Source: an uncultured Candidatus Poseidoniales archaeon (GTDB taxonomy: Archaea; Thermoplasmatota; Poseidoniia; Poseidoniales; Thalassarchaeaceae). Taken from it: a DNA stretch of 64,000 nt. The notes beneath the pieces were generated by a model. It ran no database searches and was not told where the DNA came from. It saw only the letters and a list, made by a program, of their open reading frames with translations. Both the position numbers and the translations under genes were made by a program. The DNA is taken from positions 22,098-86,097 of the forward strand of contig CAWVXH010000001.1 in assembly GCA_963934165.1 (NCBI GenBank). Reading direction: 5' to 3'. This document shows, one piece after another, positions 18,157 through 58,578 of the stretch (its first letter is position 1; every line of letters starts with the position of its first letter).

Positions 18157-18189
18157 GAATGTTCGTGATGGGTGATAATCAAAGTCTCA

Positions 18190-21100: not shown

Positions 21101-22455
21101 GTATTGTTAACGAAATAGAGACGCGAAGCTGCCGGTGAAGGAGCTTGGTTACCAAATTCTCCCGCACGGAGTGGCTCTTTAGCAGTATTAACGATATTGT
21201 TTCGCTCTGCTATTACATCGTATGAACCAGTTAACCAAATTCCATTCCACCCACCTATAGGTCCTATATCGTTATCATGCATATTCACTTTACTAGATGA
21301 TATCGAAATTCCAGATGCTTCGCTTACTCCTGAAATTTCATTGCTGAATAATTCAGCCATCGCTCCATCATAAACATAAATTCCAGATCCTTCGGCAGTA
21401 GTTATTTCATTGTTAGAAATTGAGAATTCATAATCAACGCCTTGAATTGCTTTGCGACCATTTATCTCAATTGCATTACAATTCACACCCAAAACAGAAT
21501 TTGTAACATGACCTGCTGAATTGATTAAACTAAATCCATAATCCCCGATTCCAATATTTGCATTATTAATTTCGATAAATGTGTTTTCAGCCCAAACGGT
21601 TGGCCGACCACCATCTCGTTGACCACAGCCATTATCTGTTCCAACAAATGAAGGACTATCCATAACCAGTGGAGAAATATGTGTTCCAGAACCGTAGATT
21701 TGAACTGCGGAACCACCAACATCGCTCTCTGCGTCATTTCCTGCGACATATTCGCCACCGATAAAAGTTGGTTGAGCTAAATTTGTGGTCAGAACACTGC
21801 TGGTATTGATATCTGTGAAGGTCATTTCCGTCAACGTAGGGGCAGCACCATCGATAACCATTACACCATACCTCCAACGATTTACTGAATCGATAAAGTA
21901 TGGAATTCCCCAAGCCCCATCGAATGTCATATGTCGAAGTCCGGTTTGTGAAAGATCAATCGAACTTCGGATCAAAATCCCCTCAAAACATGATGGATCG
22001 TTAATATCGATGCTCTGGGTACCCTCTGACATTCCCAAACAAGTTCCATTTGCTTGGTCGTCAATGGGATCTGTCCACCTGAATGTAATTCTATTCGCGA
22101 GACTAGAATCGCCAGAAGCGCCACAAGAGGATTTTCCAGCACAGAGGTTTCCACGGACGTCGAGATAAGTTCCATTAGGAAAAATAACTGTAGTTCCTGG
22201 TTCGACAATTAGCTTGGCACCCGCAGAGATTGTAATGTCACCAGTTAGTTGATGAGTTCCCGACCAAACTTCAGTTCCAGAAATTGTTCCAGCCGTCGTT
22301 TCGTTATTTGCCATTACTATGCTTGCAGGGCCAACTAATGCAACTAACACACTTGAGAACATCAGGAAAACAAGGAAGTAACTTCTCGCACGCGGGTCAG
22401 TCATGTAATTTGCGGGTTCGAATTGTGATTTAATCATAGGGTCATATCGAGCCAT
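18190..22455 (-). CDS. 1,421-aa surface protein: signal anchor, right-handed parallel beta-helix region, Ig-like beta-sandwich modules, C-terminal TM anchor with acidic tail
   Basis: PbH1-like repeats ('ISNNEITTAEGSGIYVYDGAMAELFSNEISG', 'MHDNDIGPIGGWNGIWL', 'ERNNIVN'). Acidic Cys motif 'CSDGIDNDGDLNIDADDDDCD'. C-terminal 'LVMIIIISIVVLGLIGGAFAYFFV' followed by 'EFEEDEESTDSEDDGITEESSNEGWIWDEESEEW'. Confidence 0.8.
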   Translation of the reverse strand: MARYDPMIKSQFEPANYMTDPRARSYFLVFLMFSSVLVALVGPASIVMANNETTAGTISGTEVWSGTHQLTGDITISAGAKLIVEPGTTVIFPNGTYLDVRGNLCAGKSSCGASGDSSLANRITFRWTDPIDDQANGTCLGMSEGTQSIDINDPSCFEGILIRSSIDLSQTGLRHMTFDGAWGIPYFIDSVNRWRYGVMVIDGAAPTLTEMTFTDINTSSVLTTNLAQPTFIGGEYVAGNDAESDVGGSAVQIYGSGTHISPLVMDSPSFVGTDNGCGQRDGGRPTVWAENTFIEINNANIGIGDYGFSLINSAGHVTNSVLGVNCNAIEINGRKAIQGVDYEFSISNNEITTAEGSGIYVYDGAMAELFSNEISGVSEASGISISSSKVNMHDNDIGPIGGWNGIWLTGSYDVIAERNNIVNTAKEPLRAGEFGNQAPSPAASRLYFVNNTITQNSPGVCSSDKYWGGDYTCPAVSVFRTGVTLKDNQISVGGDADGIRAIGAILDVQRNIFDVPSTGAIIKHYDDGYANSQQYGSLAFFSQNLWNGVDTTYNVTKSSVTVQSEYIPSPPAGINPVLLSWSDQEAWPANGFQNAIIPTPVSECSSCDNLTPIDFPLAVSMDNNSTTFTFANLSNLDRSKINIATQPTPFAVQVRRAEMVRFQTLVNGERVESANVLIEDALGNDIYSLHTDQDGYTPWFALPSDFHLDFRGLEGGNNPDGFADDEYEDSCSDGIDNDGDLNIDADDDDCDHAAGTRELSRYFYTAYKFGFGYDRGEFTLDDTTYQQTVTLVNDGPTVSVSQYEGYSFRRIVNFTGSAHDGQLAGFYATDELAQWDQQGYVHSIEIRNPFTGEWIEAGLAVDDSGMATGTVTRHNHPFSDWYYSFDMSNRQEGDYTFEFRAYDGIDYSPIISRTIKLNTAAPIISVTTPSDHSTWSEGSITFEGTSYDQYGCPLDCSKDIGSVYFHISGPNFEGVTPTSGGSDWSWNWDFSGQPRTVADYTFTIWASDGNFCIGVIDECEPVVLTLTVDNSNSMPFVSLISPQDGDRMSVGVNSQIQGVARDNDGEVSRIDITVRDIFNGGTIVHEQSVTEILPNGGWVADWDSTHLIHDYQYSIEVTAYDGYDYSEMTTIAITADNPPDAGNNQPSFDSANWVQEITLYCEIDSQSQDRCTKASIDLMQFFSDADVNQELILSVYNNPELTSDDDYGLVISVGVDGIAVYDPISMFFYDTDMDTWTLDNVVFLATDPHGSKMNSMPVTFTIVGINFEIFSPESNRIQTGELAIFTGVALPGKTVVVTIDGNPVNNTIVSDNSTWILGIPASRILGGSSIPEFRYAGEIYQGEKIYVGVVNEGMPLVMIIIISIVVLGLIGGAFAYFFVEFEEDEESTDSEDDGITEESSNEGWIWDEESEEWVEDPNYNN

Positions 22456-22493
22456 AGGCTCGTTTGATACAATGGAATAATACTTGATACAAA

Positions 22494-23732
22494 TTAGTCA
22501 TCAATATTCAATTCAAAAGCGATGGATTCAGCCCATTTCATTGCATCTAATTTCCCATAGCCAGAGTGAGAATCATGTGAATTTGTATCAAAATTATTTC
22601 GATTTGCAGATACCGCAAGGTTACGTTTTACTAGATCCATTTCTTCGGCATCCACCATGCCATCCTCACCGGCAATTTCGTCCCCATATAATTGTAAAAT
22701 TAGTGCAAGAGCACCTGTAACGAATACGGTCGAGTCACTGGTTCCTGAAGAGTACCCATAGTTTGTTACAGAATTCATTGATACGGTTGAAAATATATTT
22801 ACACCAGGGGCAATAATTTCTGGTTTTTGATTAGGAAAATCTCTATCTAATCCTGTGGATAGATCGCTCTGTGAACCATATGCACTTCTACTCCAAACCA
22901 TGCCATTCTTTGTTTGTGCTCCTACTGAAATAACGCCCTCGATGCTCGAGGGTGTTGAAACATCATTAGCATCAGTGTCGAGTCCAGTGTTTCCTGCAGC
23001 TGCGACAACAAATATACCTACGTCAAGCGCTTCTTGAACCGCTGCAGCAGTAGCTGAATGTTGAGCCATACCAACTCCTGACTCACCACCTAAACTGAGG
23101 CTGATGATATCAACGCGTTCAGTTATCCGACACCATCTGATGGCTTGTGCTACTTTGTCCCCTTGACCTGAACTTCCTTCAGGTCCAAGGGCAAGAGCAA
23201 CGGAGAGATCTATATTTGGTGCAGCGCCCCTAAATGTCCCATTTGCAATCAAAATACCAGACATTAGAGTTCCGTGATATTCATCACCTACATCACGAAC
23301 ATTATCGTGTTGCTCATTATAAAAATCTCGAAATCCAACCAAACTTTGATGTCGAAAATCAGGGTGACTCATGTCAATTCCGGTGTCGACAATACAAACA
23401 TGAATTCCACTTCCATCGAGACCTAAACTTTGTAATTCTCGGATTCCAGACTCCTCAAAAGCCCATTCTGAATTAGGTAATATAGGAGTCAAATATGCAT
23501 TCACCCATGGCCATGCGACGATTAAAAAAACCGTCCCAATCGAAAACATTACCGCTCCCCATGGCCACAAAAATTCCTTGATTGGCCCAGCCGGCCAACG
23601 AAGTTCCTTTGCATCTTGATCGCTAATGCCGTAATCCTTGCCAGGATAACCAGGTGCTGATGGGTCGATAGCAGTTAGAATTCGATGATCCTCAGGTTCG
23701 GGAAGTAACTCTAATCCATCCAATGACCGCAT
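22494..23732 (-). CDS. Membrane-anchored subtilisin-like serine protease (peptidase S8)
   Basis: Catalytic contexts are 'VCIVDTGID' (Asp), 'YHGTLMSGIL' (His) and 'YSSGTSDSTVFVTGALAL' (Ser). N-terminal TM helix 'GAVMFSIGTVFLIVAWPW'. Start set at the ATG at 23730-23732 (MRSLDG), because the longer track ORF overlaps the end of the upstream gene. Confidence 0.8.
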   Translation of the reverse strand: MRSLDGLELLPEPEDHRILTAIDPSAPGYPGKDYGISDQDAKELRWPAGPIKEFLWPWGAVMFSIGTVFLIVAWPWVNAYLTPILPNSEWAFEESGIRELQSLGLDGSGIHVCIVDTGIDMSHPDFRHQSLVGFRDFYNEQHDNVRDVGDEYHGTLMSGILIANGTFRGAAPNIDLSVALALGPEGSSGQGDKVAQAIRWCRITERVDIISLSLGGESGVGMAQHSATAAAVQEALDVGIFVVAAAGNTGLDTDANDVSTPSSIEGVISVGAQTKNGMVWSRSAYGSQSDLSTGLDRDFPNQKPEIIAPGVNIFSTVSMNSVTNYGYSSGTSDSTVFVTGALALILQLYGDEIAGEDGMVDAEEMDLVKRNLAVSANRNNFDTNSHDSHSGYGKLDAMKWAESIAFELNIDD

Positions 23733-23779: not shown

Positions 23780-26700
23780 TCAGAATGGTGCACTCGGTCG
23801 GCGTGAACGAGTTTTGGTTAATACGAATGCTGCTATTAACAGCATTGCGCCCAATAACCATCCAATCCAATCGGTGGTTCCATCAAGTGAAGGTGAACGG
23901 ACATCGACATTCTTCGATGGAAATTCCTCTACCGAGTTGAAACCACTTGAATTGATATCGAAATCAATATAATATGGTCCAATATCAATATCAGATAAGT
24001 CGATAACTAAACTATATGACACAGAAGATCCAGCAGGAATGTCCTTGATTGCAAATGCTGAAACATCAGTTGGTTCGGCACAATAGATATCATAGCAAAG
24101 AGTTGCATTCACTTGTACCAAAGATGCATCCACGAGACCACTATTCTCAACAGTCACAAGATAATTTACTTTTGTTCCTGTTTCCGCCTGTCCCAAATTA
24201 CCACTCGATGCTGAGAAATCTAATATTTTCAAAATTGGTTCTGAAGTTCTCACATTAATTTCAATTATTTCATAGGTGCCATTTGCCTTATCAGTAACCG
24301 AGACATAGATTGTGAAATCCTCTTCACCTGTAGCATTTGCAGGAGCAGAGACAATCATAGTATGCGTCGAGCTGACAAATCCGCCAATAGTGTGTGAAGT
24401 TGCTCCAGTTCGTTCCCAACTCAGAGGGAGTTCAGAATCATCAAATTCAAATTCGTATCTTTCATCACCATTTCCAGAGTTAGTGAATTTGATGCCGATT
24501 TGCTTTGACTCTCCAATAGAAATACCATACACATCATCCATCGGCTCGGAAAGTTCGAAGTCATGCAGCTGTGGAACTCTCACCAAGACATCATGAGATA
24601 GGAAGAAGCCATCTTGAGTTGAAAATTGAATAGATATTGTGTGTCCTTCTATGAAAGAATGAGATACATTTTGTTCTGCTGGAGTCACACGAATGTGCAA
24701 ATCAGTGAACGAAACTGAATTATCTAATCCGATATCAAAAGTAGTAGAAATATTCCAATCGCCTGAACCATTGTGGAACTCAACAACCCAATCTGCTGAA
24801 TCAGAACCGGTTACAAGTGCACCGACCGAGTAAGAGTCGAAGGATTCGTGACCCAGATAATCTACAGCAAATATAAATTCCACTGGCACAAAGCCGTTTT
24901 CATCATCAGCGACGACCAGGACATTTCCAGCGGAACCAATGTATGAATCATCGCCGCTGGTTAAATTCAATGTAGTCACATCAATTGAATGATCTGCAGT
25001 TCGTGCATGTGTTAATGTCATATCAGGAGTTTCTTGTCCCGCATGAATATCAATTCCTTGGCCTCCGATGTAGGACATATTTCTGTCCATTTGATAGACC
25101 TCAAATTCACTTCGAAGATCGACTCGACCATTTGGCAGAATGATGCTCATTCCACCATCCTCATCAATTTCACCAACCCATTCTAAGCCGAGGCCTAGGT
25201 CAAGAACTAATTCTGAATCTACAACATCGACAAGAGTGAATGAATTTCCATCATAACCCAACCAATGCGTCTTGAGGGTTAAAATCCCACCATTAGATAA
25301 CGAAATATCTAGGTTTCCACCATCTGCTACGCTTGCATCAACCAACCCCATAGCAACTAAAGTTTGGTCGGTAACACTAGCACGCAGTATCCAATTGCCT
25401 GGTTCTACCATAGCAGACCAGTTTCCATTCCACACACCATCTTCTAGTACCTTTTCTGGAGTTATGTGATCTCGAATCAATCCCTTGGTTGGAATCAACT
25501 CTAGAACGATTGAATCAGATATTGAAGAGAATTCGGTTTCATCGATATACGAGATCATTCCTGATATCAATACTTGACCAGCTGTTAATTCAATATCGAT
25601 ACTGTTTGAGGAGCTTCCAACCGAAACAGCACGGCTGACATCCTCGAACCCTTCGTATGAAGTATTTAGGTCCCAAAATGTATCAGCAGGAACGTAATAA
25701 CTCCAATCGCCATTAACATCCGTCGTTAGATTCGCTTCTAACATTCCATCACTATCGATAATCATCAAAGTAACATTGACGATTCCTTCAACCGCATTGG
25801 CCTCATTGTTATCGTTCAAATCCCAGAAGATAGTGCCGCTGAGTTCTACGAATAATTGAGCTGTGATGTTGTAATCATTTTCTCCGCCAACATCGACTGA
25901 AATTGGAATGGACTCGACTAACCACTGTTTACCAGAATCAATGTGATCCAATGACACCTCCCAATTCCCTGGAACCAGATCGATAGTGACCGTTCCGTCA
26001 GAATTGGTATTGTCGATACTGAAGGTGCCTAAACCATCTGTAGATTCAAGATTTAATCGCACATCACCAATAGGGCTTACTGAATTATCTTCATAGAGAG
26101 TGAAAGAGACTTGTGCCAATTCGCTAGTAGACATTTCTAGATCTAATTCAGCGTTATCAGCAGAAACCGAAATCAACTCACGTAAGCCTTCTGAAATTCC
26201 TATTGATTCAACATCGGTAGAGACAATCCAATCGCCCTCACCAATGAAATCATTAATCATTCCATTATCATCAGTAATTCTTGAAAGAATCCAACTACTG
26301 TCTGTATTGGTAAATCTAACTAATTGTTCAGCTAAAATACCGCCGCTCTCGTTAGTGAAAGCAATACTAACGCGCCATTCAGGATCGAAACCAATAGCCC
26401 GCTCAACAACGGTACCATCAAGGCCAATATCGAAAAGAACATCACCACTCATGATTCGAGTTCCAAATAAGTCACCATCATTCGCATCGGAAATATCAAC
26501 CGAGATTCGGTATGTTCCAGGTTCGAGTGGAACCACTGCGTGACCGACATTTGTCCATTCGGTTCCATTCCACTGAATTGGGTAATCAATTCCAGAATTC
26601 ATCATTGAGATAATTGTGAAATTGTAGCGCACTGCAGTCCCGTTCGAGGCATTGTTATCATCGGAATGATCGAGGAAGAAATCTATTTCTGCATTTGTAT

Positions 26701-29700
26701 TTGCAGGATAAACTAAGATTTCAACCGTATTATTGATTCCATCGACATTTGTTGAATTGGTAACAGGAGCCAACCATTCGCTATCTTCAAGAGTGAAATT
26801 CCACATACCCTTAGGGAGAACCATTTGGAATAGTCCGGTCTCATCGACTCCAGCCCGCCATGTCACATCATAATCAGAATTTGTAGCAATAACCACTACT
26901 GGCTCCCAACCTCCAATATTTGCGTTGTAAGTATTACCGATTCGATTGATGTCAATAGCACCCGCAATACCATGGCCTGGACGAGCATCGATTGAAACAG
27001 CATCCATGCCATCTTCGACAATGAAACGAATTCCATCGACTAATTTGATATTCTCACCGAGTTGAACTGTTGCATCTACTGTCGACCCTTGAGGAAGAAC
27101 AACTGAGAAGTATCCATCACCATCAGTTTGAACCGAGGTACTAAATCCACTCCAATAGAAGTCGACCTGAACATGATCGAGAGTTTTGGACACATTCAGT
27201 GGTGAATCCAGACTTGCATTTTCATTATAGTAAACCGTTCCAGTTACTAACTGGCTGGTGTGGAAGTAATAATCTGCACTAAAATCATCAGAACCAATCT
27301 CAATCTGCTCCCATAGTTGTTCTTCATTCGAAAGTGTATGGTTTAGAATCCATATTCCCTCCGTTAACTCTACGTAATACGAACCAGCCTCTGAATCATA
27401 AATTGCTTCGACCAGATTACCACTTCCATCTTTCATGTGGAAACTGACGTTTAGGTCAGCAATCTCTTCATCGACACCGTCGACTGTCTGAAATAGTCCA
27501 AAGCTGACATCAGAAGTCACAGGAACCGGCATTGGGAATTCAAATTCGGATGATTCATTCGCATCGAATAAGTAATTTGCAGATAATTCGTTGAATCCAT
27601 CTCCATCAATATCGATTTCTGCAATATATTCACCAGGAATAATAGGGCCGAATTCAAATTTGCCTTCTTCATCAGGTGTAATCAAACAAGGAGCTTGACC
27701 AGTTTCTTCACAATTATCAACAACATCTGCTGCATCCGTGTCAGCATCGCGGAGAATAACTGTTCCAGTGACCGCTTCACCATCAAAATTGATTAGGTTA
27801 CCAAAGAGAGATCCTCCTGTAATATCAATCTTAGTGATGTAATTCACAGCGTTTTGAGGTATTGTAAATCCATCATTGATTTCAATACGGCGATCATCAC
27901 CAAAGACAATGGTCACATCGTAATTACCAGGTATTGCATCGACGATGTGGAATGTACCTGGCTCGACCATATCTCCACCAAATACCCCTTCACCGGTAAA
28001 GATACCAGATCCATTTAGAGTCCCATATGATTCGAGATCCATCGTAGTGTCAGTCGTGAACACACCACTTCCAATCAGCGTTGAATGGCTATACTTTTGC
28101 GTGAAAGAGGACGACCCATTTGCTGTGAATCGCCCGGTCGCATTAACGGCTCCATTGAGCAAATATTCCCCAGATGAAGTCATACAAAGCCCAGAGTCTT
28201 CTGGCATAGTATCATTCTCATCACAATCGGAAATTTCAATATCATCGTTAACCATTCCATCGAGCAAACCTCGCCCGGAGAATTCTCCGTCACCAGTCAA
28301 ACTGTGATTATGATAAATGACTTGAGTGAAATTTCCAGTGAAATCAGTTGCAGTCACTATACTTTGAGAAACTACGGAACCATCACCAGTGAATGTTACT
28401 TCTCCGATACCATCGAATCTTAGGTTTTCACCCTCGACAGTCCCAACTGAAGTTGTTAGCACATATGGTTGGAGTTGAATCTCATCCCAAGATGGAGTCA
28501 GTTCGATCGTAACATCAGTAACTGAATCTCCATCGAATAATTCTGAACCACTCCAAACTAGGCGTCCTATAGCGTGAGCTGGGTTGACAATTATTGGAGC
28601 ATCGATGTGAGCCTCTCCATTACTGTGTCCATCTTCGCCTGAAATATTAACGATGGTTTCAGATAACCATGTTGAACCGGAAACATTTGCGAGAATTCCA
28701 GTAACTGGATTTATCGATCTTACCCCTGTTGATGAGGCTTCGAATATATCACCGAAAGTAGATTGAATGTCTGAAGTCATGATTTGAGCACGAGCAGATG
28801 CAAGATCAGATTCACCGAAATATGCAGTAACACGAATCTTACCTGCAGGTGCTTGGAAACTATATCTACCGTTTTCATCAGCATCAGTGGTTCCAATAGG
28901 AATCCAATAAGTTCTGTCATCTCGATCTATGACTTCTCCATCAACAGCGATTTCATCGCCACTGAAAGCATCACGCTCTATCAAAATACGAGCATTGGGG
29001 ACTACTCCATGGCCATCTAATTCGACAGTCCCTTCTAGAGTTGCACCACTATAGTACTTCATTACCTTCACTTGAGTATTTGCAGATCCTATGGTCGGGT
29101 TCGAGCAAGTCGAGTCAAGTTTTGTTCCGTTTTCATCTACTTCACAACGCTCTGCATCATACCAATTCGAAAGAACTAGGTTGTTCATCATAGCACCAGG
29201 AAGTGGGTAGGCATTTTCGAGGTATGAACCAGGAGCACCGCTCAAGTAAAAATGAGGCATTGGTGCTTCTGCATCCCCTCCCAATCCTAGAGTCGAAGTG
29301 CCGTATCCTACGTATATACGTGCAACCATGGTTTCGAAAAATTCCGGCTGGTGTTGATAATCAATATCGACCATGCGAATAATAGGAGTTCCATCACCTT
29401 GGCCACTGTATTGATTGAGAATTATATCATTCTGGTACTCTAGATCGAATTCTTCAACGGTTCGAGGAATTATCGGGTCATCCCCTCTCTGTGTAAGATA
29501 AACAGATGAGACGTATGTATCAGTATCTAATCCTGAAAGCGTAGTAGGGGCATGGAAAATCCCAGTAGTTTGTCCTCGGTGATAGGAATAATCTTCGTAA
29601 TATTTACCTCCAAGTGGGTATAGTCTGTTATCTACAGCAAAGTAACGAATATCGTTATTTCGAGTTATCATTTCTCCGAGACTGCCTTCGTAATCTTGTA

Positions 29701-32700
29701 CATCATACTCGATATTTGTGGTCATGTCATGATACATATCACCGAGTTGATCATTGTCGAAAGCTTCTAAGAGGAATGCTCGACTAAGAGATAACCTTGC
29801 ATTTGTACGATGAAGACCCGTTGAGACATCATCGTAATCTTTAATCAAATCAGGAGTGTAGAGGTAACCACTAATTTCATAGTATTCAACCTCTAAATCA
29901 AATTCCCCCACACTAGAACGAGCCTGGTTGTAGAGAGACATCGCCTCCGACCGGTCGGTTGAAAGGTTGCCATATTGTTCACCATCTAAGCGAACCATCC
30001 ACTGGTCTTCTAATTCTAATGTACCATCATCTGCAAGAATACCACCAAAGAGTAGTTCCACATTGTCATCTGTAGCCATTACCGCTAGTGCGCGAGATTC
30101 AACCATTTCAGAGTCACCAACTGCAAGACTAATGATTAAGTTGAATTCTTCAATCTGGGCATCGCTCATGTGTGACAACAGTATATCATTGAATTCATCA
30201 GTGAATCCTTGACCATCATTGTATCTACGGTCACCTTGAGCGAGGGTTGTGATGAATAGAGAAAGTGTATCATCTTGGCCCGCAGCGAGTAACATTGCTC
30301 CGCTATTTGGGATACCAGACTGAAAGTTATCAGCCACTGTTGGGTGCTGACCTTGTGCTAAAGCCTGGAAACCATAATCCCACCATGAAACGAATGCGGG
30401 TCGCTCAGAAAATGAAACGTCAGAATCTTGTTCAGATAGCCAGTCATAAGCCATATTCCAAGACCCAGAATTGAAACCTGGGCCGAATGTACCCATGTAC
30501 CAAAGATCCCCTCCTTCTGGGTCGTAATTATTACTGTTTAGAACTGATAAACCAAGGGCTTCAAGTCGGAAAATATCAGGTGCAATGTCATGAATAATTT
30601 GGTCGACATCAGTTGCTGAATTTTCACCACGTGGGATACCGGAGTCTATTCCATAAGTCATGTGTTGTGAGGAAATCATCAATATTACCATCAACATTGC
30701 TGGTATGCCAGGATTACTCTTACTAGCAGGCCAAATCGAACGGAATCGTGTTCGAGGAGTTCCAATACCAGAACGACGCCATTCCTTAGCGAAGCCAACG
30801 AAATTAGCACGTTGCCACATCGACGAGATTCCAATTCCGCCAACAACAGCCATTGCAGGTGTAGCGTTGAAAATGAAACGGCCTGCTGAGAAGGCCATGT
30901 ATGCTGCGATGAATACCCAGAGGCCGAGGAGCATATCTCCTTGCTTCTCCTTTCTTGCACCTTTCCATATCATGATAAAAGCAACACCCATTGAAATTAG
31001 GAATACAATAGGTCCATATGAAGCGAAAAGAACACCTCGGCTTGGTGCTTGTGCCTCACCAATTGTTCCGAAAATCTTGTTCTTAGAGAAGTAAAAACCG
31101 CCAGTAAAGAGGATGTCCCAGCCATTGTAAATTTCTGCGTATTGTAGAGCATATAGTAAACCTAAAATTCCACCCATTAGGAATATTCCACTACCTAGAA
31201 CAAGAAGCCAAGGCTTGTCACGGAATGAACATGTGACCCAACCAAGAGCAAGGGTAAATCCAATGATGTAAAACATCGGTTGGAATCCGCTAGGGTCGAA
31301 TAATAAATTCAATCCAGGCCAGGTGTAGAATGGTAATGGAATCAAGAAAGTAGTTAGCATCATTTGCAGAGCTGCCGAAGTCAATGGTAGACTGTCACGT
31401 CGGCGAATCATATTCAGGAAAATTTGTCCAGCAAAAGCAAGGAATAGAATTCCGGGCCCGTAAACAAAACCTTTCCAACCAAGTGCAACTGTTGCAAATG
31501 ATATTCCAGAAAGAGTAGCATTGGCCATCACAGCAGGGCTGCGTGACCACATTTCTCTAATTCCGGCGAATAGATAGAGGGGGTTTGAACTAGGATTTGA
31601 GAAAATCCTCTCGTTCTGAATTTGATCGACTGCTTTCACCCAGAAGTAAAATGCCAAAGCGAGGAATAACAGAGCGAAAGCGTCGTGATCGGCCAAACCG
31701 AATGTGGAATGGCTGATATGACCCGGCATCAAAGCGATTAGCCAAGCAGCAAATATTCCTGCTTGCTTACTATGAACACGGCGTGCTAATCCAGCTATTG
31801 GTAATACGATTAACGCACCAAATATCGCTGGCATAGCGGCAACGCTCCACCATGCAACCTCTTCTACGGCAATTCCGGTAAGCCAAGAAAGGCCGATTCC
31901 ACCGAGTGCTAACGACCACGAGAAAAGTGGTGGTCGAGGATTAATGGCACCCATTGGATAAGCTCGATCAGCATCAAAGATGTAGTGGCTGCGTTCTGCG
32001 ATGATATAATCGACAACACGCTTCATGTACCAAGGGTCAGAGCCGCCAGTCATATCCCAAAGTCCGGTTCCTGATGCATTCATAGCAGGAAGGACGTTCC
32101 ATCCAGTTCGAATAGCTAGACCGACAAATATGGCTGAACCAACTAAAATTCCATACGAGTGGGCTTGCCACCAGCGGCGAATATCTGATTTCTGTCGCAT
32201 AGGAGCAATGCCACCAAAGTAACCGCGGGATGCTATCATTACCCCGCCAACATTCAACCAGAAAGCCAAGAAGAACCAAGCTATTGTGCTGGTGAAACTA
32301 TTACCTGAAAGCAATTCAGGGAAACTATTACCTATTTCTTGTAGATGACCAAAGGTGTACATCATCCAGTTCACTCCTACAAGCGTCCCCAATACATGCC
32401 AGCGTTCTGCATGACAGAATGCAAGGAACATGATAACTAACGATGTAAATAATGCCCACACAGAACCGAGATACTGATGGTCAGAGAAAACTTGTAAATC
32501 ATTGATTTGACCAAGCCAAATTATTGGAATCAAGTTTACAACAAAAATTGCACCCACAAATGATAAACCTTCAACTCCGAAAACCAGTGGGATATCAGAG
32601 AACCAAGAACCTGAGCCGGCTTCTTCGATTCTGCCCCGCATTGCCAATGTAAGGAATAAACCCAGAACTATTGCCGCTGCCCAGAATCCAAAGAACATCG

Positions 32701-33217
32701 ATCCACTTGCTGCTCGAGCTACATCAATCATCTCTGCTGCATTACCAGCCCAATTACTGTCATCGAATACATGTCGAGCCGAATATGCAACTGCGAGATG
32801 AAAACCGATTACAATTGATAGAAGAATTGATGACTCTTCATTCCTATTGCTCAAAATAAGCGCAAAGGTGGAAATACCAATGAATGCGAATGTGAATCCG
32901 ATTATCGAAGATGTTAGTCCTGCATAAATCGAAATTATTGAAGCGGCTAAAAATCCTAGTGGGACAATTGCTGCTCGGTGTTTCGAGGTGAATGAATTGC
33001 TAAGTGAAATAACTGTAGCGATTCGGCCCAGTGCCGCAGCAAATGCTGCAGCAATTGGCAGAATCAGGATGTTCATATATCCGTCATTTTCAATATTACC
33101 ATTTGCAAGGAAATCAGCTCCAAAGAAAAGTACCAGTAAAGTCACTAGTACAGCAGGGGCTGCAAGGATTTTTCCGAGTGGAAAATCGCTATCCTTTGCA
33201 TCTTTCATTTCGTTCAT
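23780..33217 (-). CDS. aglB: Giant (about 3,145 aa) archaeal oligosaccharyltransferase AglB/STT3 fused to an extra N-terminal polytopic block and a very long C-terminal beta-sandwich extension ending in a TM anchor
   Basis: Uninterrupted 9.4-kb ORF. The STT3 signature 'WWDYG' is encoded at 30371-30385 ('FVSWWDYGFQALAQGQHPTVADNFQ'). The first-loop acidic motif 'GGSDPWYMKR' is at 32027-32038, and a second acidic motif is 'GLADHDAFALLF'. The polytopic region holds more than 20 hydrophobic segments. The C-terminal part repeats units such as 'GRYSFQAPAGKIRVTAYF' and 'DGTVTIDLVPGNWEVSL', then ends in 'WIGWLLGAMLLIAAFVLTKTRSRR'. The track start is TTG at 33223, and the first ATG is at 33217. Confidence 0.85.
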   Translation of the reverse strand: MNEMKDAKDSDFPLGKILAAPAVLVTLLVLFFGADFLANGNIENDGYMNILILPIAAAFAAALGRIATVISLSNSFTSKHRAAIVPLGFLAASIISIYAGLTSSIIGFTFAFIGISTFALILSNRNEESSILLSIVIGFHLAVAYSARHVFDDSNWAGNAAEMIDVARAASGSMFFGFWAAAIVLGLFLTLAMRGRIEEAGSGSWFSDIPLVFGVEGLSFVGAIFVVNLIPIIWLGQINDLQVFSDHQYLGSVWALFTSLVIMFLAFCHAERWHVLGTLVGVNWMMYTFGHLQEIGNSFPELLSGNSFTSTIAWFFLAFWLNVGGVMIASRGYFGGIAPMRQKSDIRRWWQAHSYGILVGSAIFVGLAIRTGWNVLPAMNASGTGLWDMTGGSDPWYMKRVVDYIIAERSHYIFDADRAYPMGAINPRPPLFSWSLALGGIGLSWLTGIAVEEVAWWSVAAMPAIFGALIVLPIAGLARRVHSKQAGIFAAWLIALMPGHISHSTFGLADHDAFALLFLALAFYFWVKAVDQIQNERIFSNPSSNPLYLFAGIREMWSRSPAVMANATLSGISFATVALGWKGFVYGPGILFLAFAGQIFLNMIRRRDSLPLTSAALQMMLTTFLIPLPFYTWPGLNLLFDPSGFQPMFYIIGFTLALGWVTCSFRDKPWLLVLGSGIFLMGGILGLLYALQYAEIYNGWDILFTGGFYFSKNKIFGTIGEAQAPSRGVLFASYGPIVFLISMGVAFIMIWKGARKEKQGDMLLGLWVFIAAYMAFSAGRFIFNATPAMAVVGGIGISSMWQRANFVGFAKEWRRSGIGTPRTRFRSIWPASKSNPGIPAMLMVILMISSQHMTYGIDSGIPRGENSATDVDQIIHDIAPDIFRLEALGLSVLNSNNYDPEGGDLWYMGTFGPGFNSGSWNMAYDWLSEQDSDVSFSERPAFVSWWDYGFQALAQGQHPTVADNFQSGIPNSGAMLLAAGQDDTLSLFITTLAQGDRRYNDGQGFTDEFNDILLSHMSDAQIEEFNLIISLAVGDSEMVESRALAVMATDDNVELLFGGILADDGTLELEDQWMVRLDGEQYGNLSTDRSEAMSLYNQARSSVGEFDLEVEYYEISGYLYTPDLIKDYDDVSTGLHRTNARLSLSRAFLLEAFDNDQLGDMYHDMTTNIEYDVQDYEGSLGEMITRNNDIRYFAVDNRLYPLGGKYYEDYSYHRGQTTGIFHAPTTLSGLDTDTYVSSVYLTQRGDDPIIPRTVEEFDLEYQNDIILNQYSGQGDGTPIIRMVDIDYQHQPEFFETMVARIYVGYGTSTLGLGGDAEAPMPHFYLSGAPGSYLENAYPLPGAMMNNLVLSNWYDAERCEVDENGTKLDSTCSNPTIGSANTQVKVMKYYSGATLEGTVELDGHGVVPNARILIERDAFSGDEIAVDGEVIDRDDRTYWIPIGTTDADENGRYSFQAPAGKIRVTAYFGESDLASARAQIMTSDIQSTFGDIFEASSTGVRSINPVTGILANVSGSTWLSETIVNISGEDGHSNGEAHIDAPIIVNPAHAIGRLVWSGSELFDGDSVTDVTIELTPSWDEIQLQPYVLTTSVGTVEGENLRFDGIGEVTFTGDGSVVSQSIVTATDFTGNFTQVIYHNHSLTGDGEFSGRGLLDGMVNDDIEISDCDENDTMPEDSGLCMTSSGEYLLNGAVNATGRFTANGSSSFTQKYSHSTLIGSGVFTTDTTMDLESYGTLNGSGIFTGEGVFGGDMVEPGTFHIVDAIPGNYDVTIVFGDDRRIEINDGFTIPQNAVNYITKIDITGGSLFGNLINFDGEAVTGTVILRDADTDAADVVDNCEETGQAPCLITPDEEGKFEFGPIIPGEYIAEIDIDGDGFNELSANYLFDANESSEFEFPMPVPVTSDVSFGLFQTVDGVDEEIADLNVSFHMKDGSGNLVEAIYDSEAGSYYVELTEGIWILNHTLSNEEQLWEQIEIGSDDFSADYYFHTSQLVTGTVYYNENASLDSPLNVSKTLDHVQVDFYWSGFSTSVQTDGDGYFSVVLPQGSTVDATVQLGENIKLVDGIRFIVEDGMDAVSIDARPGHGIAGAIDINRIGNTYNANIGGWEPVVVIATNSDYDVTWRAGVDETGLFQMVLPKGMWNFTLEDSEWLAPVTNSTNVDGINNTVEILVYPANTNAEIDFFLDHSDDNNASNGTAVRYNFTIISMMNSGIDYPIQWNGTEWTNVGHAVVPLEPGTYRISVDISDANDGDLFGTRIMSGDVLFDIGLDGTVVERAIGFDPEWRVSIAFTNESGGILAEQLVRFTNTDSSWILSRITDDNGMINDFIGEGDWIVSTDVESIGISEGLRELISVSADNAELDLEMSTSELAQVSFTLYEDNSVSPIGDVRLNLESTDGLGTFSIDNTNSDGTVTIDLVPGNWEVSLDHIDSGKQWLVESIPISVDVGGENDYNITAQLFVELSGTIFWDLNDNNEANAVEGIVNVTLMIIDSDGMLEANLTTDVNGDWSYYVPADTFWDLNTSYEGFEDVSRAVSVGSSSNSIDIELTAGQVLISGMISYIDETEFSSISDSIVLELIPTKGLIRDHITPEKVLEDGVWNGNWSAMVEPGNWILRASVTDQTLVAMGLVDASVADGGNLDISLSNGGILTLKTHWLGYDGNSFTLVDVVDSELVLDLGLGLEWVGEIDEDGGMSIILPNGRVDLRSEFEVYQMDRNMSYIGGQGIDIHAGQETPDMTLTHARTADHSIDVTTLNLTSGDDSYIGSAGNVLVVADDENGFVPVEFIFAVDYLGHESFDSYSVGALVTGSDSADWVVEFHNGSGDWNISTTFDIGLDNSVSFTDLHIRVTPAEQNVSHSFIEGHTISIQFSTQDGFFLSHDVLVRVPQLHDFELSEPMDDVYGISIGESKQIGIKFTNSGNGDERYEFEFDDSELPLSWERTGATSHTIGGFVSSTHTMIVSAPANATGEEDFTIYVSVTDKANGTYEIIEINVRTSEPILKILDFSASSGNLGQAETGTKVNYLVTVENSGLVDASLVQVNATLCYDIYCAEPTDVSAFAIKDIPAGSSVSYSLVIDLSDIDIGPYYIDFDINSSGFNSVEEFPSKNVDVRSPSLDGTTDWIGWLLGAMLLIAAFVLTKTRSRRPSAPF

Positions 33218-33335
33218 TATCAATCACCATTAGGTCGAGCCTATAGGCTCGGCAACGCGGCCAAAATTATTCGTGTTATAGCCTTGCTGGCGAGAGAGAT
33301 AAAACCATTCGCCATAGTAATGCTTCTTCCTTGGC

Positions 33336-49796: not shown

Positions 49797-50866
49797 GATT
49801 GCTCTATATTGACAGGATTCGAGCTATAGCAATTCTTGCGATGGTTCAGGTCCATACCGCGGCCATTGTACCTCCTGAAGGAATTACCGTAGGAGACCCC
49901 ATTGCATTGGTTTCAGCTGCAATCGGAGGAATGGCGGCTCCATTATTTGTAACAATTTCAGGTTGGGGAATTTATAGAAGTGCGATATCTAGGGATACCA
50001 AATCGAATGATGATTTTAGAGCTTGGTCAAAATGGATTTTACCACGAATTACAATGTTGATTTTCTGCCAATTTTTAGTCAATTTTTTACTATCAACCGA
50101 TCGAGGAGGGCGTTTTGAATCATTTACTCCAGGAGTTCTAACATTACTGGCAATCGCTACGATAATCGCGCCAATAATAATCCATTTTTCTCATCAAACT
50201 CGCATTGTGCTATTGATTGTCCTTGCTGGCTCTCAATACTTCCTCGGAGATTTGGCTGGCACTGATTGGACCTGGTTTGAGCGTGTTTCCCAAGATAGCT
50301 TTACAGAATGGATTGAGCGTCTTCTATGGAATGGAACATATCCAGCACTACCATGGTTGGCTTACATTATGCTCGGCTCAATAATTTTCGAATTGGAGGG
50401 TGAGCCAAATACTAGAGACAAAATGATGTATGGCGGACTTGTAATCACTACAGCAACTCTGATTTATTCATTTACTTCAAATCAAATGTGGGCACTTCCA
50501 GAAGGAGAAGCAGTCCTAACGTTCTTCCCTGCCTCGACTACTTTCATCTTTGTTTCAGGTACTTTTGTTCTGATGACATTCAGGATATTAGAAGGTAGAG
50601 AAATCCAAGGAGGCCCCCCAACTGGTGGTCAAAAATTGGCAATTTTTGAACCGGCTGGGCGACTCTCGTTGACAATTTATGTCGCCCATTTCGCTGTACT
50701 CGGAATAGTTGCTAACATGATGTATGGTCAAGCTAGGCTCGATGTAATTCCTGCCTTCGCAGTAACCCTAATCCATACGGCGATTTGGATTCCACTATCG
50801 ATTTTACACGAACGTTTAATTTCAGATTATTCACTCGAAAAATTATTGCAGAAACTCAACTCGTAG
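49793..50866 (+). CDS. Polytopic membrane protein, acyltransferase-3 / DUF1624 (heparan-alpha-glucosaminide N-acetyltransferase-like) candidate
   Basis: The 'RLLYIDRIRAIAILAMVQVH' N-terminus is typical of this family (R..sLD.fRG.a...M...H). About 9-10 TM helices. ATGA overlap with the deoA stop. Confidence 0.4.
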   Translation: MRLLYIDRIRAIAILAMVQVHTAAIVPPEGITVGDPIALVSAAIGGMAAPLFVTISGWGIYRSAISRDTKSNDDFRAWSKWILPRITMLIFCQFLVNFLLSTDRGGRFESFTPGVLTLLAIATIIAPIIIHFSHQTRIVLLIVLAGSQYFLGDLAGTDWTWFERVSQDSFTEWIERLLWNGTYPALPWLAYIMLGSIIFELEGEPNTRDKMMYGGLVITTATLIYSFTSNQMWALPEGEAVLTFFPASTTFIFVSGTFVLMTFRILEGREIQGGPPTGGQKLAIFEPAGRLSLTIYVAHFAVLGIVANMMYGQARLDVIPAFAVTLIHTAIWIPLSILHERLISDYSLEKLLQKLNS

Positions 50867-58419: not shown

Positions 58420-58490
58420 TCGCGCTGACAGCAGGACTCGAACCTGCGACCTGTGGATTAACAGTCCACTGCTCCGCCAACTATTCGGCC
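58420..58490 (-). pseudogene. Degenerate copy of tRNA-Asn(GUU) (pseudo-tRNA)
   Basis: Aligns along its whole length to the intact tRNA-Asn at 61204-61279. A 43-nt block is identical (58427-58469 = 61211-61253), covering the T arm, variable loop and anticodon arm. Outside it there are 6 substitutions. A 6-nt deletion removes positions 7-12 (5' strand of the D stem). Two acceptor-stem pairs are broken, and the 3' end is CGA instead of CCA. Confidence 0.8.
58427..58469. repeat. 43-nt perfect direct repeat, copy 1 (within the pseudo-tRNA-Asn)
   Basis: gacagcaggactcgaacctgcgacctgtggattaacagtccac, identical to 61211-61253. Confidence 0.95.
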
Positions 58491-58578
58491 CAGTTTGCGG
58501 TCTGAGCTCCGAGGCATCCCCCAGGAGAAAGGAGCAGGAGACAGTAGGAATCAAAGGTGCGTCTGTTGGCCTCGGCCT

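What the first reader, a model, noticed from the sequence alone, without database searches (positions are those of the whole stretch)
23780..33217. 3,145-aa oligosaccharyltransferase: AglB/STT3 core with extra N-terminal membrane block and a huge anchored tail
**Seen in the sequence**
- One uninterrupted 9.4-kb ORF.
- The diagnostic STT3 'WWDYG' is encoded at 30371-30385 (about aa 946).
- The first-loop acidic motif 'SDPWYMKR' is at 32027-32038 (about aa 396).
- About 350-390 aa holding roughly nine or ten additional hydrophobic helices precede the first STT3 helix.
- After the catalytic periplasmic-type domain comes well over 1,500 aa of repeated beta-sandwich modules, for example 'GRYSFQAPAGKIRVTAYF', 'DGYFSVVLPQGSTVDATV', 'DGTVTIDLVPGNWEVSL' and 'NGDWSYYVPADTFWDL'. 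These look carboxypeptidase-regulatory-like, Ig-like or CARDB-like.
- The protein ends in a second membrane anchor, 'WIGWLLGAMLLIAAFVL', followed by 'TKTRSRR'.

**Established knowledge**
Characterised AglBs (Archaeoglobus, Pyrococcus, Haloferax) are roughly 600-1,050 aa and have none of these additions.

**Inference**
The enzyme may be wired into the cell envelope. Possible roles for the tail are a spacer or ruler spanning the pseudo-periplasm, a substrate-recruiting scaffold, or an adhesin that glycosylates itself.
Basis: partly seen in the sequence, partly recalled or inferred. Interest (0 to 1): 0.8.

Follow-up and report, generated by a model that had tools for sequence, protein, structure and literature searches.

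The report
Giant double-anchored archaeal N-glycosylation enzyme
This is a real 3,145-residue version of the archaeal N-glycosylation enzyme AglB, found in every Marine Group II (Poseidoniales) genome examined; it is about three times the usual size because an unmatched 10-helix membrane module is fused in front and a 1,760-residue, sequon-rich, re-anchored tail behind, and the accessible literature does not discuss it.

Summary
Window 23780-33217(-) is one uninterrupted 3,145-codon gene with a Shine-Dalgarno-like GGTGA before the ATG.

- **Enzyme core.** It matches STT3/AglB by sequence (Pfam E 7e-21) and by predicted fold (Foldseek to A. fulgidus AglB, E 3e-9). The catalytic motifs D394, D510-H-D512, TIGE718 and WWDYG945 are invariant.
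- **Not an assembly artefact.** Full-length collinear homologues (33-91% identity; 3,122-3,305 aa, SD 36) occur in 466 GTDB species genomes. All inspected are Poseidoniales, including single-cell genomes and a 1.6-Mb contig.
- **N-terminal block (aa 1-345).** It is a confidently modelled 10-helix bundle (pLDDT 88.6) with no PDB structural match. Among 1.84 billion representative proteins it has no homologue outside this family.
- **AglB proper (aa 346-1355).** About 1,010 aa, within the normal size range.
- **Tail (aa 1386-3112).**
  - A unique conserved region is followed by about 11 CarboxypepD_reg-like β-sandwiches and then DUF11/CARDB-like domains.
  - It carries twice the expected number of N-x-S/T sequons (z = 5).
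- **C-terminus.** It ends in a membrane helix and a basic cytoplasmic peptide; 149 of 150 members end in Phe.

Verdict: an active oligosaccharyltransferase built into the cell envelope. It is a new variant of a known kind; databases list it mostly as "hypothetical" or "STT3 domain-containing". The roles of the N-block and the tail remain inferred.

The parts
23780..33217 (-). Complete coding sequence of the giant AglB (3,145 aa plus the stop codon at 23780-23782)
   Evidence: Uninterrupted ORF. Full-length collinear homologues of 3,122-3,305 aa exist.
33224..33228 (-). Shine-Dalgarno-like GGTGA, 6 nt upstream of the ATG at 33217
   Evidence: Read directly from the sequence. Homologue N-termini agree with this start.
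32183..33217 (-). N-block, aa 1-345. Ten transmembrane helices at 19-39, 47-73, 78-98, 104-122, 126-148, 160-193, 215-236, 252-270, 274-294 and 308-330. Family-specific, with no known structural relative.
   Evidence: AF2 model has pLDDT 88.6 and pTM 0.85. Foldseek against the PDB gives best E 0.87 and TM <= 0.2. A profile search of 1.84 billion proteins returns only 55 hits, all N-termini or fragments of this family. There is no internal repeat and no similarity to the STT3 membrane domain. Invariant or nearly invariant (>=90%) polar residues are R65, E127, D165, R168, E271, N283, E294 and N322.
30638..32182 (-). STT3/AglB GT-C membrane domain, aa 346-860
   Evidence: Pfam STT3 E 6.9e-21 over aa 379-615. 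TIGR04154 E 2.4e-45 over aa 359-979. HMMER alignment to A. fulgidus AglB-L, PDB 3WAJ. Foldseek hits to 3wak/7e9s, yeast and human STT3, and PglB at E 3e-9 to 2e-4.
32018..32047 (-). First external loop motif GGSDPWYMKR (aa 391-400), containing the catalytic-type Asp394
   Evidence: Aligns with GGNDPWYY (D47) of A. fulgidus AglB-L. G391 to R400 are all invariant in 62 sequences.
31682..31690 (-). Second acidic motif D510-H511-D512
   Evidence: Aligns with the N-D-H-H block of A. fulgidus AglB-L. Invariant.
31055..31066 (-). TIGE (aa 718-721), a TIXE-type motif in the flexible external loop 5
   Evidence: Motif located. T718, I719 and E721 are invariant. It sits in a low-pLDDT loop, aa 697-733, between membrane helices.
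30371..30385 (-). WWDYG motif (aa 945-949)
   Evidence: Located. Aligns to the WWDYG of 3WAJ and to the AglB C-terminal domains 3VGP and 3VU0. Invariant.
29153..30637 (-). Extracytoplasmic head domain of the AglB proper, aa 861-1355. It holds WWDYG and a strongly conserved alpha/beta region that includes the RYFAVDNRLYPLGG..HRGQTTGIF block.
   Evidence: Identity is 0.58-0.81 across homologues. Alpha/beta secondary structure is predicted with pLDDT 74-90 for aa 980-1170. There are no Pfam or PDB sequence matches beyond the WWDYG-proximal ~70 aa.
29063..29152 (-). Variable linker between head and tail, aa ~1356-1385
   Evidence: This is the main indel hot spot. Insertions of up to 84 aa occur after aa 1354-1369 in 18-27 of 112 homologues, and identity drops to 0.47.
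27959..29062 (-). Proximal tail, aa 1386-1753. It has one CarboxypepD_reg-like module (1441-1487) and a unique, conserved Gly-rich region with G-x-G-x-F-x-G motifs and two conserved Cys pairs.
   Evidence: Module detected by iterated HMM. Invariant G/F/C columns seen. No Pfam or PDB match.
24926..27958 (-). Array of about 11 tandem beta-sandwich modules of ~93 aa (CarboxypepD_reg / prealbumin-like), aa 1754-2764
   Evidence: hhalign self-matches have offsets that are multiples of about 93 aa. Modules lie at 1919-1982, 2013-2077, 2104-2168, 2295-2362, 2383-2451, 2479-2544, (2597-2639, weak) and 2669-2724. PF13620 matches 17/21 and 18/21 family members, with best E 6.5e-11 and 2.2e-11.
23882..24925 (-). 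Distal block of Ig-like domains (DUF11/CARDB-like), aa 2765-3112, set off by a second indel-prone linker at ~2765-2775
   Evidence: DUF11 matches 11/21 members and CARDB 4/21. Weak hits in the query itself. Linker identified.
23819..23875 (-). C-terminal transmembrane anchor, aa 3115-3133
   Evidence: Kyte-Doolittle 19-residue peak of 1.87. Present in 149 of 150 full-length members.
23783..23818 (-). Conserved basic cytoplasmic tail TKTRSRRPSAPF (aa 3134-3145), ending in Phe
   Evidence: R, R, A, P and F are >=90% conserved. 149 of 150 members end in F and 110 end in APF; median tail length is 12 aa. There is no PGF motif, unlike two PGF-CTERM proteins in the same window.
22494..23732 (-). Context: conserved downstream neighbour, a membrane-anchored S8 subtilase with its catalytic domain outside the cell. 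A functional link to AglB is inferred, not shown.
   Evidence: Pfam Peptidase_S8 E 1.5e-38. One TM helix precedes the catalytic domain, and the probable start is ATG 23732. It lies downstream of the AglB in 57 of 80 loci and in the most distant member, L081.
18190..22455 (-). Context: conserved second downstream neighbour, a 1,421-aa surface protein (beta-helix plus Big_7) with a C-terminal anchor and an acidic cytoplasmic tail
   Evidence: Pfam hits. Termini read. Synteny shown.

Best explanation
**What it is.** The gene encodes the N-oligosaccharyltransferase (AglB) of a Marine Group II archaeon (Poseidoniales, Thalassarchaeaceae-like), built as one polypeptide that is integrated into the cell envelope.

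**How it most likely works.**
- *Shown:* a complete AglB of normal size (aa 346-1355) keeps every catalytic motif tested.
- *Inferred from the family:* it transfers a lipid-linked glycan to Asn in N-x-S/T on the outer face of the membrane.
- *Shown:* an orphan 10-helix membrane module is fused in front of it.
  - *Inferred:* this module packs beside the STT3 membrane domain. It either handles the lipid carrier or lipid-linked oligosaccharide (delivery, flipping or recycling) or mediates assembly.
- *Shown:* after a variable linker, a 1,760-aa acidic ectodomain follows. It has fixed length and fixed domain order, and it returns to the membrane through a C-terminal helix whose short basic tail ends in an invariant Phe.
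  - *Inferred:* the tail forms a large arch or canopy anchored at both ends. It is itself heavily N-glycosylated, probably by its own catalytic head. It acts as a structural envelope element that positions the enzyme within the surface layer, rather than as a variable adhesin.
For: **Family and catalytic integrity.**
- Pfam STT3 scores 75.7 bits against a cutoff of 24.5. TIGR04154 is the best NCBIfam match.
- HMMER aligns D394 and D510-H-D512 to the metal-site residues of A. fulgidus AglB-L.
- Foldseek puts AglB, STT3 and PglB as the top 17 hits.
- The motifs are invariant in 62 sequences.

**Real, selected architecture.**
- More than 120 clusters of full-length homologues were found, and 466 GTDB species genomes carry a relative.
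- The ORF is uninterrupted at 3,147-3,346 codons in nearly all loci whose contigs are long enough; three have shorter reading frames. These include single-cell genomes and a 1.6-Mb contig.
- The family is collinear down to 33% identity. Length SD is 36 aa, and indels are confined to three linkers.

**N-block.**
- The 10-helix model is confident. An even helix count and the positive-inside pattern are consistent with STT3 TM1 starting in the cytoplasm.
- It is exclusive to this family.
- Invariant charged residues lie at both membrane faces.

**Tail as a glycosylated envelope component.**
- It has 35 sequons against 17.0 +/- 3.6 expected (z = 5.0). N1524, N1735 and N2192 are conserved in about 100% of homologues.
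- It is acidic: D+E 16.7%, K+R 3.5%.
- It contains CarboxypepD_reg and DUF11/CARDB-type surface domains.
- A C-terminal TM helix plus basic tail is present in 149 of 150 members.

**Expression.** An aglB gene of an MGIIb genus-O1 MAG was about 4-fold enriched in metatranscriptomes in which that genus was active (PMC9723583).
Against: - No experiment exists on any member of the family.
- The DK/MI Ser/Thr-pocket motif could not be aligned. Only a candidate, Q1021-x-x-E1024-x-x-x-I1028, is offered.
- Whether these genomes carry a second, ordinary AglB was not tested.
- Two-thirds of the tail was never modelled in 3D, so 'arch anchored at both ends' rests on topology logic alone.
- The N-block's role is pure inference; nothing links it to lipid handling.
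- The AF2 model of aa 1-1200 has low confidence around the active-site loops.
- The tail might be cleaved off after synthesis; a membrane-anchored subtilase is encoded next door.
Confidence: 0.55

Rival explanations
1. Precursor or polyprotein. The gene is translated as one chain and then cleaved in the variable linker (aa ~1355-1385). The cut could be made by the adjacent membrane-anchored S8 subtilase. The products would be an ordinary-sized AglB (with the N-block) and a separate, C-terminally anchored, heavily glycosylated surface (S-layer-like) protein.
For: - The head/tail boundary is the main indel hot spot.
- The head alone is AglB-sized.
- The tail has its own anchor, is sequon-rich, and is built from surface-protein domains.
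- An S8 protease with an extracytoplasmic catalytic domain is the conserved downstream gene, even in the most distant member.
Against: - No cleavage motif was identified.
- Synteny in this order is conserved in general: the unrelated purD is just as constantly adjacent, so neighbourhood is weak evidence.
- The fusion has never been resolved into two genes in any of the inspected genomes. That is unexpected if the two parts functioned independently.
Confidence: 0.2
2. Adhesin or substrate-capture protein. The tail is mainly a long reach-out adhesin for particles, algae or polymers, and the AglB head serves chiefly as its membrane anchor.
For: - Tandem beta-sandwich arrays are typical of prokaryotic adhesins.
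- Poseidoniales are thought to attach to particles (PMC6461757).
Against: - The tail is tied to the membrane at both ends.
- Repeat number and total length are fixed across the order (SD 36 aa), whereas adhesins usually vary in repeat number.
- The catalytic motifs are invariant, so the head is more than an anchor.
Confidence: 0.1
3. Catalytically inactive AglB-derived scaffold (pseudoenzyme), with glycosylation carried out by another STT3 paralogue elsewhere in the genome.
For: - The TIGR04154 score (155) is far below that model's cutoff of 450.
- The DK/MI motif was not recognised.
- The presence of a second AglB was not excluded.
Against: D394, D510/D512, TIGE, WWDYG and many flanking residues are invariant across sequences that are only 33-60% identical overall. 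This is the pattern of a working active site.
Confidence: 0.04
4. Assembly, frameshift-correction or chimeric artefact that joins an ordinary AglB to neighbouring surface-protein genes.
For: None found. Three of 80 loci (L011, L036, L059) have shorter reading frames.
Against: The same 3.1-3.3-kaa ORF appears in hundreds of independent assemblies from different studies, in single-cell genomes and on a 1.6-Mb contig. All are collinear and end in the same C-terminal peptide.
Confidence: 0.01

Closest known systems
Archaeoglobus fulgidus AglB-L (PDB 3WAJ, 3WAK, 5GMY, 7E9S); characterised archaeal AglBs in general
   Same: - Best sequence and structure match.
- Same GT-C/STT3 membrane domain.
- Same first-loop Asp motif (GGxDPWY), second acidic motif, TIXE-type loop-5 motif and WWDYG.
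- The catalytic domain faces outward.
   Different: - AfAglB-L chains are 875 aa, against 3,145 aa here.
- AfAglB-L has no N-terminal 10-helix module, no tail and no second anchor.
- The second motif here is D-H-D rather than D-H-H.
- The region after WWDYG (aa 975-1355) has no detectable similarity.
- The DK/MI motif is not recognisable.
TIGR04154 archaeo_STT3 (oligosaccharyltransferase associated with the archaeosortase A system; Haloferax volcanii AglB type)
   Same: - Best NCBIfam model, covering aa 359-979.
- The window also encodes two PGF-CTERM (archaeosortase A-type) surface proteins. The same enzyme-plus-sorting-system pairing therefore exists in this genome.
   Different: - Scores 155 bits against a cutoff of 450, so it is not a member at the curated threshold.
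- The giant protein's own C-terminus lacks the PGF motif and carries an extra conserved RRPxAPF peptide.
Eukaryotic OST complex (STT3 plus Ost1-6, Swp1, Wbp1; PDB 6EZN, 6S7O, 6S7T)
   Same: - STT3 fold and motifs.
- Conceptually, a catalytic STT3 surrounded by additional transmembrane helices and lumenal/extracellular beta-rich domains.
   Different: - There, the extra helices and domains are separate subunits. Here they are fused in cis.
- No sequence or structural similarity of the N-block to any solved OST subunit, or to any other PDB entry, was found.
Large archaeal and bacterial surface proteins built from CarboxypepD_reg, CARDB and DUF11 beta-sandwich arrays with a C-terminal anchor
   Same: - The tail shares the same domain families, acidic composition, sequon richness and C-terminal TM-plus-basic anchor.
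   Different: - Such proteins start with a signal peptide and are anchored at one end only. This one starts with a 23-helix-scale enzyme and is anchored at both ends.
- Domain number is fixed across the whole order.

Membership tests
STT3/AglB oligosaccharyltransferase (Pfam PF02516; GT-C fold) | Significant match to the STT3 profile HMM above the curated threshold | tested here: met
   PF02516 scores 75.7 bits (cutoff 24.5), E 6.9e-21, over aa 379-615. The family profile against PDB AglB gives E 2.7e-16.
STT3/AglB oligosaccharyltransferase (Pfam PF02516; GT-C fold) | Multi-helix GT-C membrane domain structurally superposable on solved AglB, STT3 or PglB | tested here: met
   Foldseek on the AF2 model of aa 1-1200 gives 3wak E 3.4e-9 at probability 1.0. 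All 17 hits with E <= 1e-3 are AglB, STT3 or PglB. TM-scores are modest (0.26-0.55) because the query carries extra parts and its loops are low-confidence.
STT3/AglB oligosaccharyltransferase (Pfam PF02516; GT-C fold) | Catalytic Asp in the first external loop | tested here: met
   GGSDPWYMKR (D394) aligns to GGNDPWYY of A. fulgidus AglB-L. The motif is invariant.
STT3/AglB oligosaccharyltransferase (Pfam PF02516; GT-C fold) | Second acidic metal-binding motif (DxD, DxE or DxH type) | tested here: met
   D510-H511-D512 aligns with the D-H-H block of A. fulgidus AglB-L. The motif is invariant.
STT3/AglB oligosaccharyltransferase (Pfam PF02516; GT-C fold) | TIXE/SVSE motif in the flexible external loop 5 | tested here: met
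   TIGE at aa 718-721 has T, I and E invariant. It lies in the low-confidence loop 697-733 between helices. It was identified by pattern and position, not by residue-level alignment to a solved structure.
STT3/AglB oligosaccharyltransferase (Pfam PF02516; GT-C fold) | WWDYG motif in the extracytoplasmic domain | tested here: met
   aa 945-949. It aligns to the WWDYG of 3WAJ, 3VGP and 3VU0 and is invariant.
STT3/AglB oligosaccharyltransferase (Pfam PF02516; GT-C fold) | DK or MI motif helix that completes the Ser/Thr-binding pocket | tested here: inconclusive
   HMMER alignments end about 25 residues after WWDYG. The invariant Q1021, E1024 and I1028 have the same i, i+3, i+7 spacing as DxxKxxx(M/I) and lie in a predicted helix at 1019-1029. 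This is inference only.
STT3/AglB oligosaccharyltransferase (Pfam PF02516; GT-C fold) | Oligosaccharide transfer from a lipid carrier to Asn of N-x-S/T | not testable with these tools
   This needs biochemistry or genetics.
TIGR04154 archaeo_STT3 (archaeosortase A-associated subfamily) | Score at or above the curated cutoff (450 bits) | tested here: not met
   155.2 bits, E 2.4e-45. It is the best model but far below the cutoff, so I do not file the protein as a member.
PGF-CTERM archaeosortase A substrate | P-G-F motif immediately before the C-terminal TM helix and basic cluster | tested here: not met
   The C-terminus reads ...DGTTDWIGWLLGAMLLIAAFVLTKTRSRRPSAPF and has no PGF. Two other window proteins do end in TPGFG...-type signals.
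CarboxypepD_reg-like beta-sandwich (PF13620) | Profile match for the repeated tail modules | tested here: met
   In the query the match is just under the cutoff (31.9 against 32.3 bits, E 1.7e-7). PF13620 matches 17/21 and 18/21 family members in the two array segments, with best E 6.5e-11 and 2.2e-11.
CARDB / DUF11 Ig-like surface domains | Profile match in the distal tail | tested here: inconclusive
   DUF11 matches 11/21 members (best E 7.9e-6) and CARDB 4/21. Hits in the query itself are sub-threshold.

The most novel reading that the evidence does not exclude
The protein is a self-contained envelope-building machine specific to Poseidoniales.
- The orphan 10-helix N-block is a new type of lipid-linked-oligosaccharide or dolichol-phosphate handling module (a flippase, or for delivery or recycling) fused directly to the transferase.
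- The double-anchored, auto-glycosylated tail is the cell's principal surface lattice, standing in for a conventional S-layer.
- The invariant cytoplasmic ...RRPxAPF-COOH peptide reports envelope state to the cytoplasm. One candidate receiver is the TPR-containing STAND NTPase with an HTH domain, which is conserved three genes downstream.
Probability: 0.1. Interest if true: 0.85.

Novelty: new variant of a known kind. Interest (0 to 1): 0.62.

Why it matters
Marine Group II archaea are among the most abundant archaea in surface oceans, yet they remain uncultured and their cell envelope is unknown. This gene matters for four reasons.

- **Conservation.** It is present across 466 species-level genomes of the order and is held to a constant length. 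It is therefore likely to be a core determinant of how these cells build and glycosylate their surface.
- **Relevance to ecology.** The surface is the interface for virus attachment, particle association and dissolved-organic-matter capture.
- **Relevance to glycobiology.**
  - This is by far the largest STT3-family protein I could relate to a solved or characterised one.
  - It fuses in cis the kinds of accessory parts (extra membrane helices and extracytoplasmic β-domains) that eukaryotic OST recruits as separate subunits.
  - It also offers a confidently predicted 10-helix membrane fold with no structural relative.
- **Testability.** It provides a concrete target: the catalytic head can be tested by complementation, and the tail can be sought in existing ocean metaproteomes.

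Tried and rejected
**N-block as a duplication of the STT3 membrane domain, or an internally duplicated transporter-like 5+5 bundle.** hhalign found nothing in either comparison (probability <1%).

**N-block as a known family or fold.**
- No Pfam or NCBIfam hit.
- An exhaustive profile search of 1.84 billion representative proteins found it only in this family.
- Foldseek against the PDB found no match despite a confident model.

**Region 975-1385 and region 1380-1760 as known domains.**
- Pfam on pieces gave nothing.
- Family profiles against all PDB sequences gave nothing significant.
- Per-member Pfam scans gave almost nothing.

**Residue-level alignment of the DK/MI motif to 3WAJ.** The alignment stops too early.

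**Tail modules shared with other envelope proteins in the window.** None were found.

**C-terminus as a PGF-CTERM or similar sorting signal.** Rejected: there is no PGF, and there is an extra conserved peptide after the basic cluster.

**Literature.** Seven searches or look-ups combining AglB, STT3, oligosaccharyltransferase or N-glycosylation with Marine Group II or Poseidoniales terms found no discussion of this protein. The only trace was an 'aglB' row in a transcriptome table.

- A first attempt to align 90 full-length sequences failed on the size limit.
- Both structure-prediction jobs went on aa 1-1200 and aa 1-345, so the tail was not modelled.


Full report
**1. The observation**

Window 23780..33223 on the minus strand is a single open reading frame of 3,147 codons.
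- The ATG at 33217 gives 3,145 aa. It is preceded by GGTGA with a 6-nt spacer and matches the N-termini of homologues.
- WWDYG is at aa 945-949, window 30371-30385, exactly as reported.
- The four quoted tail peptides and the C-terminal anchor plus TKTRSRR are all present.
- An open frame of this length cannot arise by chance in 42% G+C DNA.

**2. Family assignment**

- Pfam STT3 (PF02516) matches aa 379-615 at E 6.9e-21, 75.7 bits against a cutoff of 24.5.
- The best NCBIfam model is TIGR04154, the archaeosortase-A-associated archaeal STT3. It gives E 2.4e-45 over aa 359-979, but 155 bits against a cutoff of 450, so the protein is not a member of that subfamily at the curated threshold.
- phmmer and a family profile against PDB sequences put A. 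fulgidus AglB-L (3WAJ, 5GMY) first, followed by yeast and human STT3.
- These alignments place D394 (GGSDPWYMKR) on the GGNDPWYY Asp of AfAglB-L, and D510-H511-D512 on its D-H-H block.
- TIGE (718-721) is a TIXE-type loop-5 motif.
- In a 62-sequence alignment, all of these residues and WWDYG are invariant.
- An AlphaFold2 model of aa 1-1200 (pLDDT 72, pTM 0.68) hits AglB, STT3 and PglB as the 17 best PDB matches (E 3e-9 to 2e-4).
- The DK/MI pocket motif could not be aligned. The invariant Q1021, E1024 and I1028, in a predicted helix, have the right spacing, but that is inference.

**3. Not an artefact; an order-wide gene**

- A search of 5.8 billion protein clusters returned more than 120 full-length homologues at 44-91% identity and 3,122-3,305 aa. 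Sources name them as uncultured marine group II/III, Thermoplasmatota or Poseidoniales proteins, labelled 'hypothetical', 'STT3 domain-containing' or 'dolichyl-phosphooligosaccharide-protein glycotransferase'.
- In GTDB species-representative genomes, 466 loci encode a relative. The 80 best are all Poseidoniales or Thalassarchaeaceae. The window is 94-97% identical to two MAGs.
- Where the contig is long enough, nearly all loci hold an uninterrupted ORF of 3,147-3,346 codons. These include single-cell genomes and a 1.6-Mb contig. Three loci (L011, L036, L059) have shorter reading frames.
- More distant members, 33-40% identical over the full length and 3,146-3,194 aa, are also labelled Poseidoniales.
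- Across 150 full-length members the length SD is 36 aa.
- Indels are concentrated in three places: aa ~1354-1369, ~2765-2775 and ~3100.

**4. Anatomy**

*(a) N-block, aa 1-345.*
- Modelled alone, it gives pLDDT 88.6 and pTM 0.85 with ten membrane helices.
- The even helix number and the basic loops are consistent with both ends in the cytoplasm, as STT3 TM1 requires. I read this topology from the sequence.
- Foldseek finds no PDB relative (best E 0.87, TM <= 0.2).
- An exhaustive profile search of 1.84 billion representative proteins finds 55 hits, all of them N-termini or fragments of this family.
- It is neither internally duplicated nor related to the STT3 membrane domain.
- Invariant or nearly invariant (>=90%) polar residues (R65, E127, D165, R168, E271, N283, E294, N322) suggest more than a passive anchor.

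*(b) AglB proper, aa 346-1355.*
- At about 1,010 aa it is within the usual size range of long AglBs.
- It includes a strongly conserved alpha/beta region after WWDYG that matches nothing outside the family.

*(c) Variable linker, aa ~1356-1385*.

*(d) Proximal tail, aa 1386-1753.*
- It has one CarboxypepD_reg-like module.
- It also has a unique conserved Gly-rich region with two conserved Cys pairs.

*(e) β-sandwich array, aa 1754-2764.*
- It holds about 11 modules of ~93 aa.
- Self-comparison offsets are multiples of about 93.
- Eight clear modules and one weak one are recovered by an iterated profile.
- PF13620 matches 17/21 and 18/21 family members.

*(f) Distal block, aa 2765-3112.* DUF11/CARDB-like domains.

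*(g) C-terminus.*
- A transmembrane helix lies at aa 3115-3133, followed by a 12-residue basic tail.
- 149 of 150 members end in Phe, and 110 end in APF.
- There is no PGF motif, although two other proteins in the window carry PGF-CTERM signals.

**5. Clues to function**

- The tail (aa 1386-3112) has 35 N-x-S/T sequons against 17.0 +/- 3.6 in composition-preserving shuffles (z = 5.0). The membrane part and the head show no enrichment.
- N1524, N1735 and N2192 are conserved in about 100% of 112 homologues, and N1692 and N2289 in about 90%.
- The tail is strongly acidic.
- Together with the surface-type domains, this marks the tail as an extracytoplasmic, probably heavily N-glycosylated structure. 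It is tethered to its own glycosyltransferase at one end and to the membrane at the other.
- Fixed length and domain order across the order argue for a structural role and against a variable adhesin.
- A published metatranscriptome study lists an aglB gene of an MGIIb genus-O1 MAG as about 4-fold enriched when that genus was active (PMC9723583). It does not comment on the gene's size.

**6. Neighbourhood**

- The order CarS > purD > AglB > S8 subtilase > 1,421-aa β-helix/Big_7 surface protein > STAND NTPase with HTH and TPR is conserved in most loci and in the most distant member.
- The subtilase has a single membrane helix ahead of its catalytic domain, so it acts outside the cell. This keeps alive the rival reading that the tail is cleaved off.
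- The unrelated purD is equally conserved next door. Synteny in this order is therefore weak evidence of a functional link.

**7. Comparison and novelty**

- The enzyme works like, and by every testable criterion but one is, an AglB/STT3.
- It differs from all solved or characterised relatives in three ways:
  - the orphan N-terminal membrane module;
  - the 1,760-aa tail;
  - the second anchor with a conserved cytoplasmic peptide.

  For scale, the solved chains listed run 696-935 aa.
- The architecture is already deposited many times in public databases. In the searchable literature it is not described.
- I rate it a new variant of a known kind.

**8. What remains open**

- Whether it is the only AglB in these genomes.
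- The 3D structure of the tail.
- Whether the tail is cleaved.
- What the N-block and the terminal ...APF peptide do.
- Any direct evidence of activity.

Noticed in passing
window 58422-61279: Two tRNA-Asn(GTT) genes on the minus strand bracket a single 902-aa ORF (58495-61203, + strand). One tRNA, at 61204-61279, is intact. The other, at 58422-58489, has a 6-nt D-arm deletion but a near-identical 3' half. The ORF's G+C is about 0.55 (0.53-0.57 in 2-kb windows) against about 0.42 for the window. This looks like a tRNA-targeted insertion or duplication carrying a foreign surface-protein gene.
   Followed up: partly
window 56290-58389 (+) and 58495-61203 (+): Both proteins end in PGF-CTERM-type signals (TPGFGFLLAISMLVVATRVRSRKSKY and TPGFGLISALAVLTLAALARRD). 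The genome therefore uses an archaeosortase A-like sorting system. Neither protein has a Pfam match at E <= 1e-4.
   Followed up: partly
window 15601-23732 (-); L081 14408-22737: A three-gene set lies downstream of the AglB and is conserved even in the most distant family member (33% identity). It comprises a membrane-anchored S8 subtilase, a ~1,420-aa beta-helix/Big_7 surface protein, and a cytoplasmic HTH + AAA_16 STAND NTPase + TPR protein. The beta-helix protein's cytoplasmic tail keeps a motif, GW(I/L)WD...W-V-x-D-P-(N/D)-Y, in both the window and L081.
   Followed up: partly
window 43173-45899 (+): A 908-aa membrane protein matches the CD36 family (PF01130, E 1.8e-9), which is otherwise typical of eukaryotes. 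This is unusual for an archaeon.
   Followed up: no
window 50856-54839 (-): A 1,327-aa secreted protein carries an M60-like (enhancin-type) peptidase domain (E 1.2e-57) plus He_PIG Ig domains. It is a candidate glycoprotein- or mucin-degrading enzyme.
   Followed up: no
window 45973-48522 (+): An 849-aa protein combines a lamin-tail domain with two phospholipase-D-like domains.
   Followed up: no
window 8871-14624 (-): A 1,917-aa ORF has an N-terminal signal-like segment and no Pfam match at all. Partial similarity to it appears upstream of the AglB cluster in some related loci.
   Followed up: no
window 23783-23818 (-); all family members: The cytoplasmic C-terminal peptide of the giant AglB ends in Phe in 149 of 150 members. 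The ending is APF in 110 of them and x-R-F or x-P-F in the divergent Poseidoniales members. No other ORF in the window combines a terminal hydrophobic helix with a basic tail ending in Phe as this one does.
   Followed up: partly
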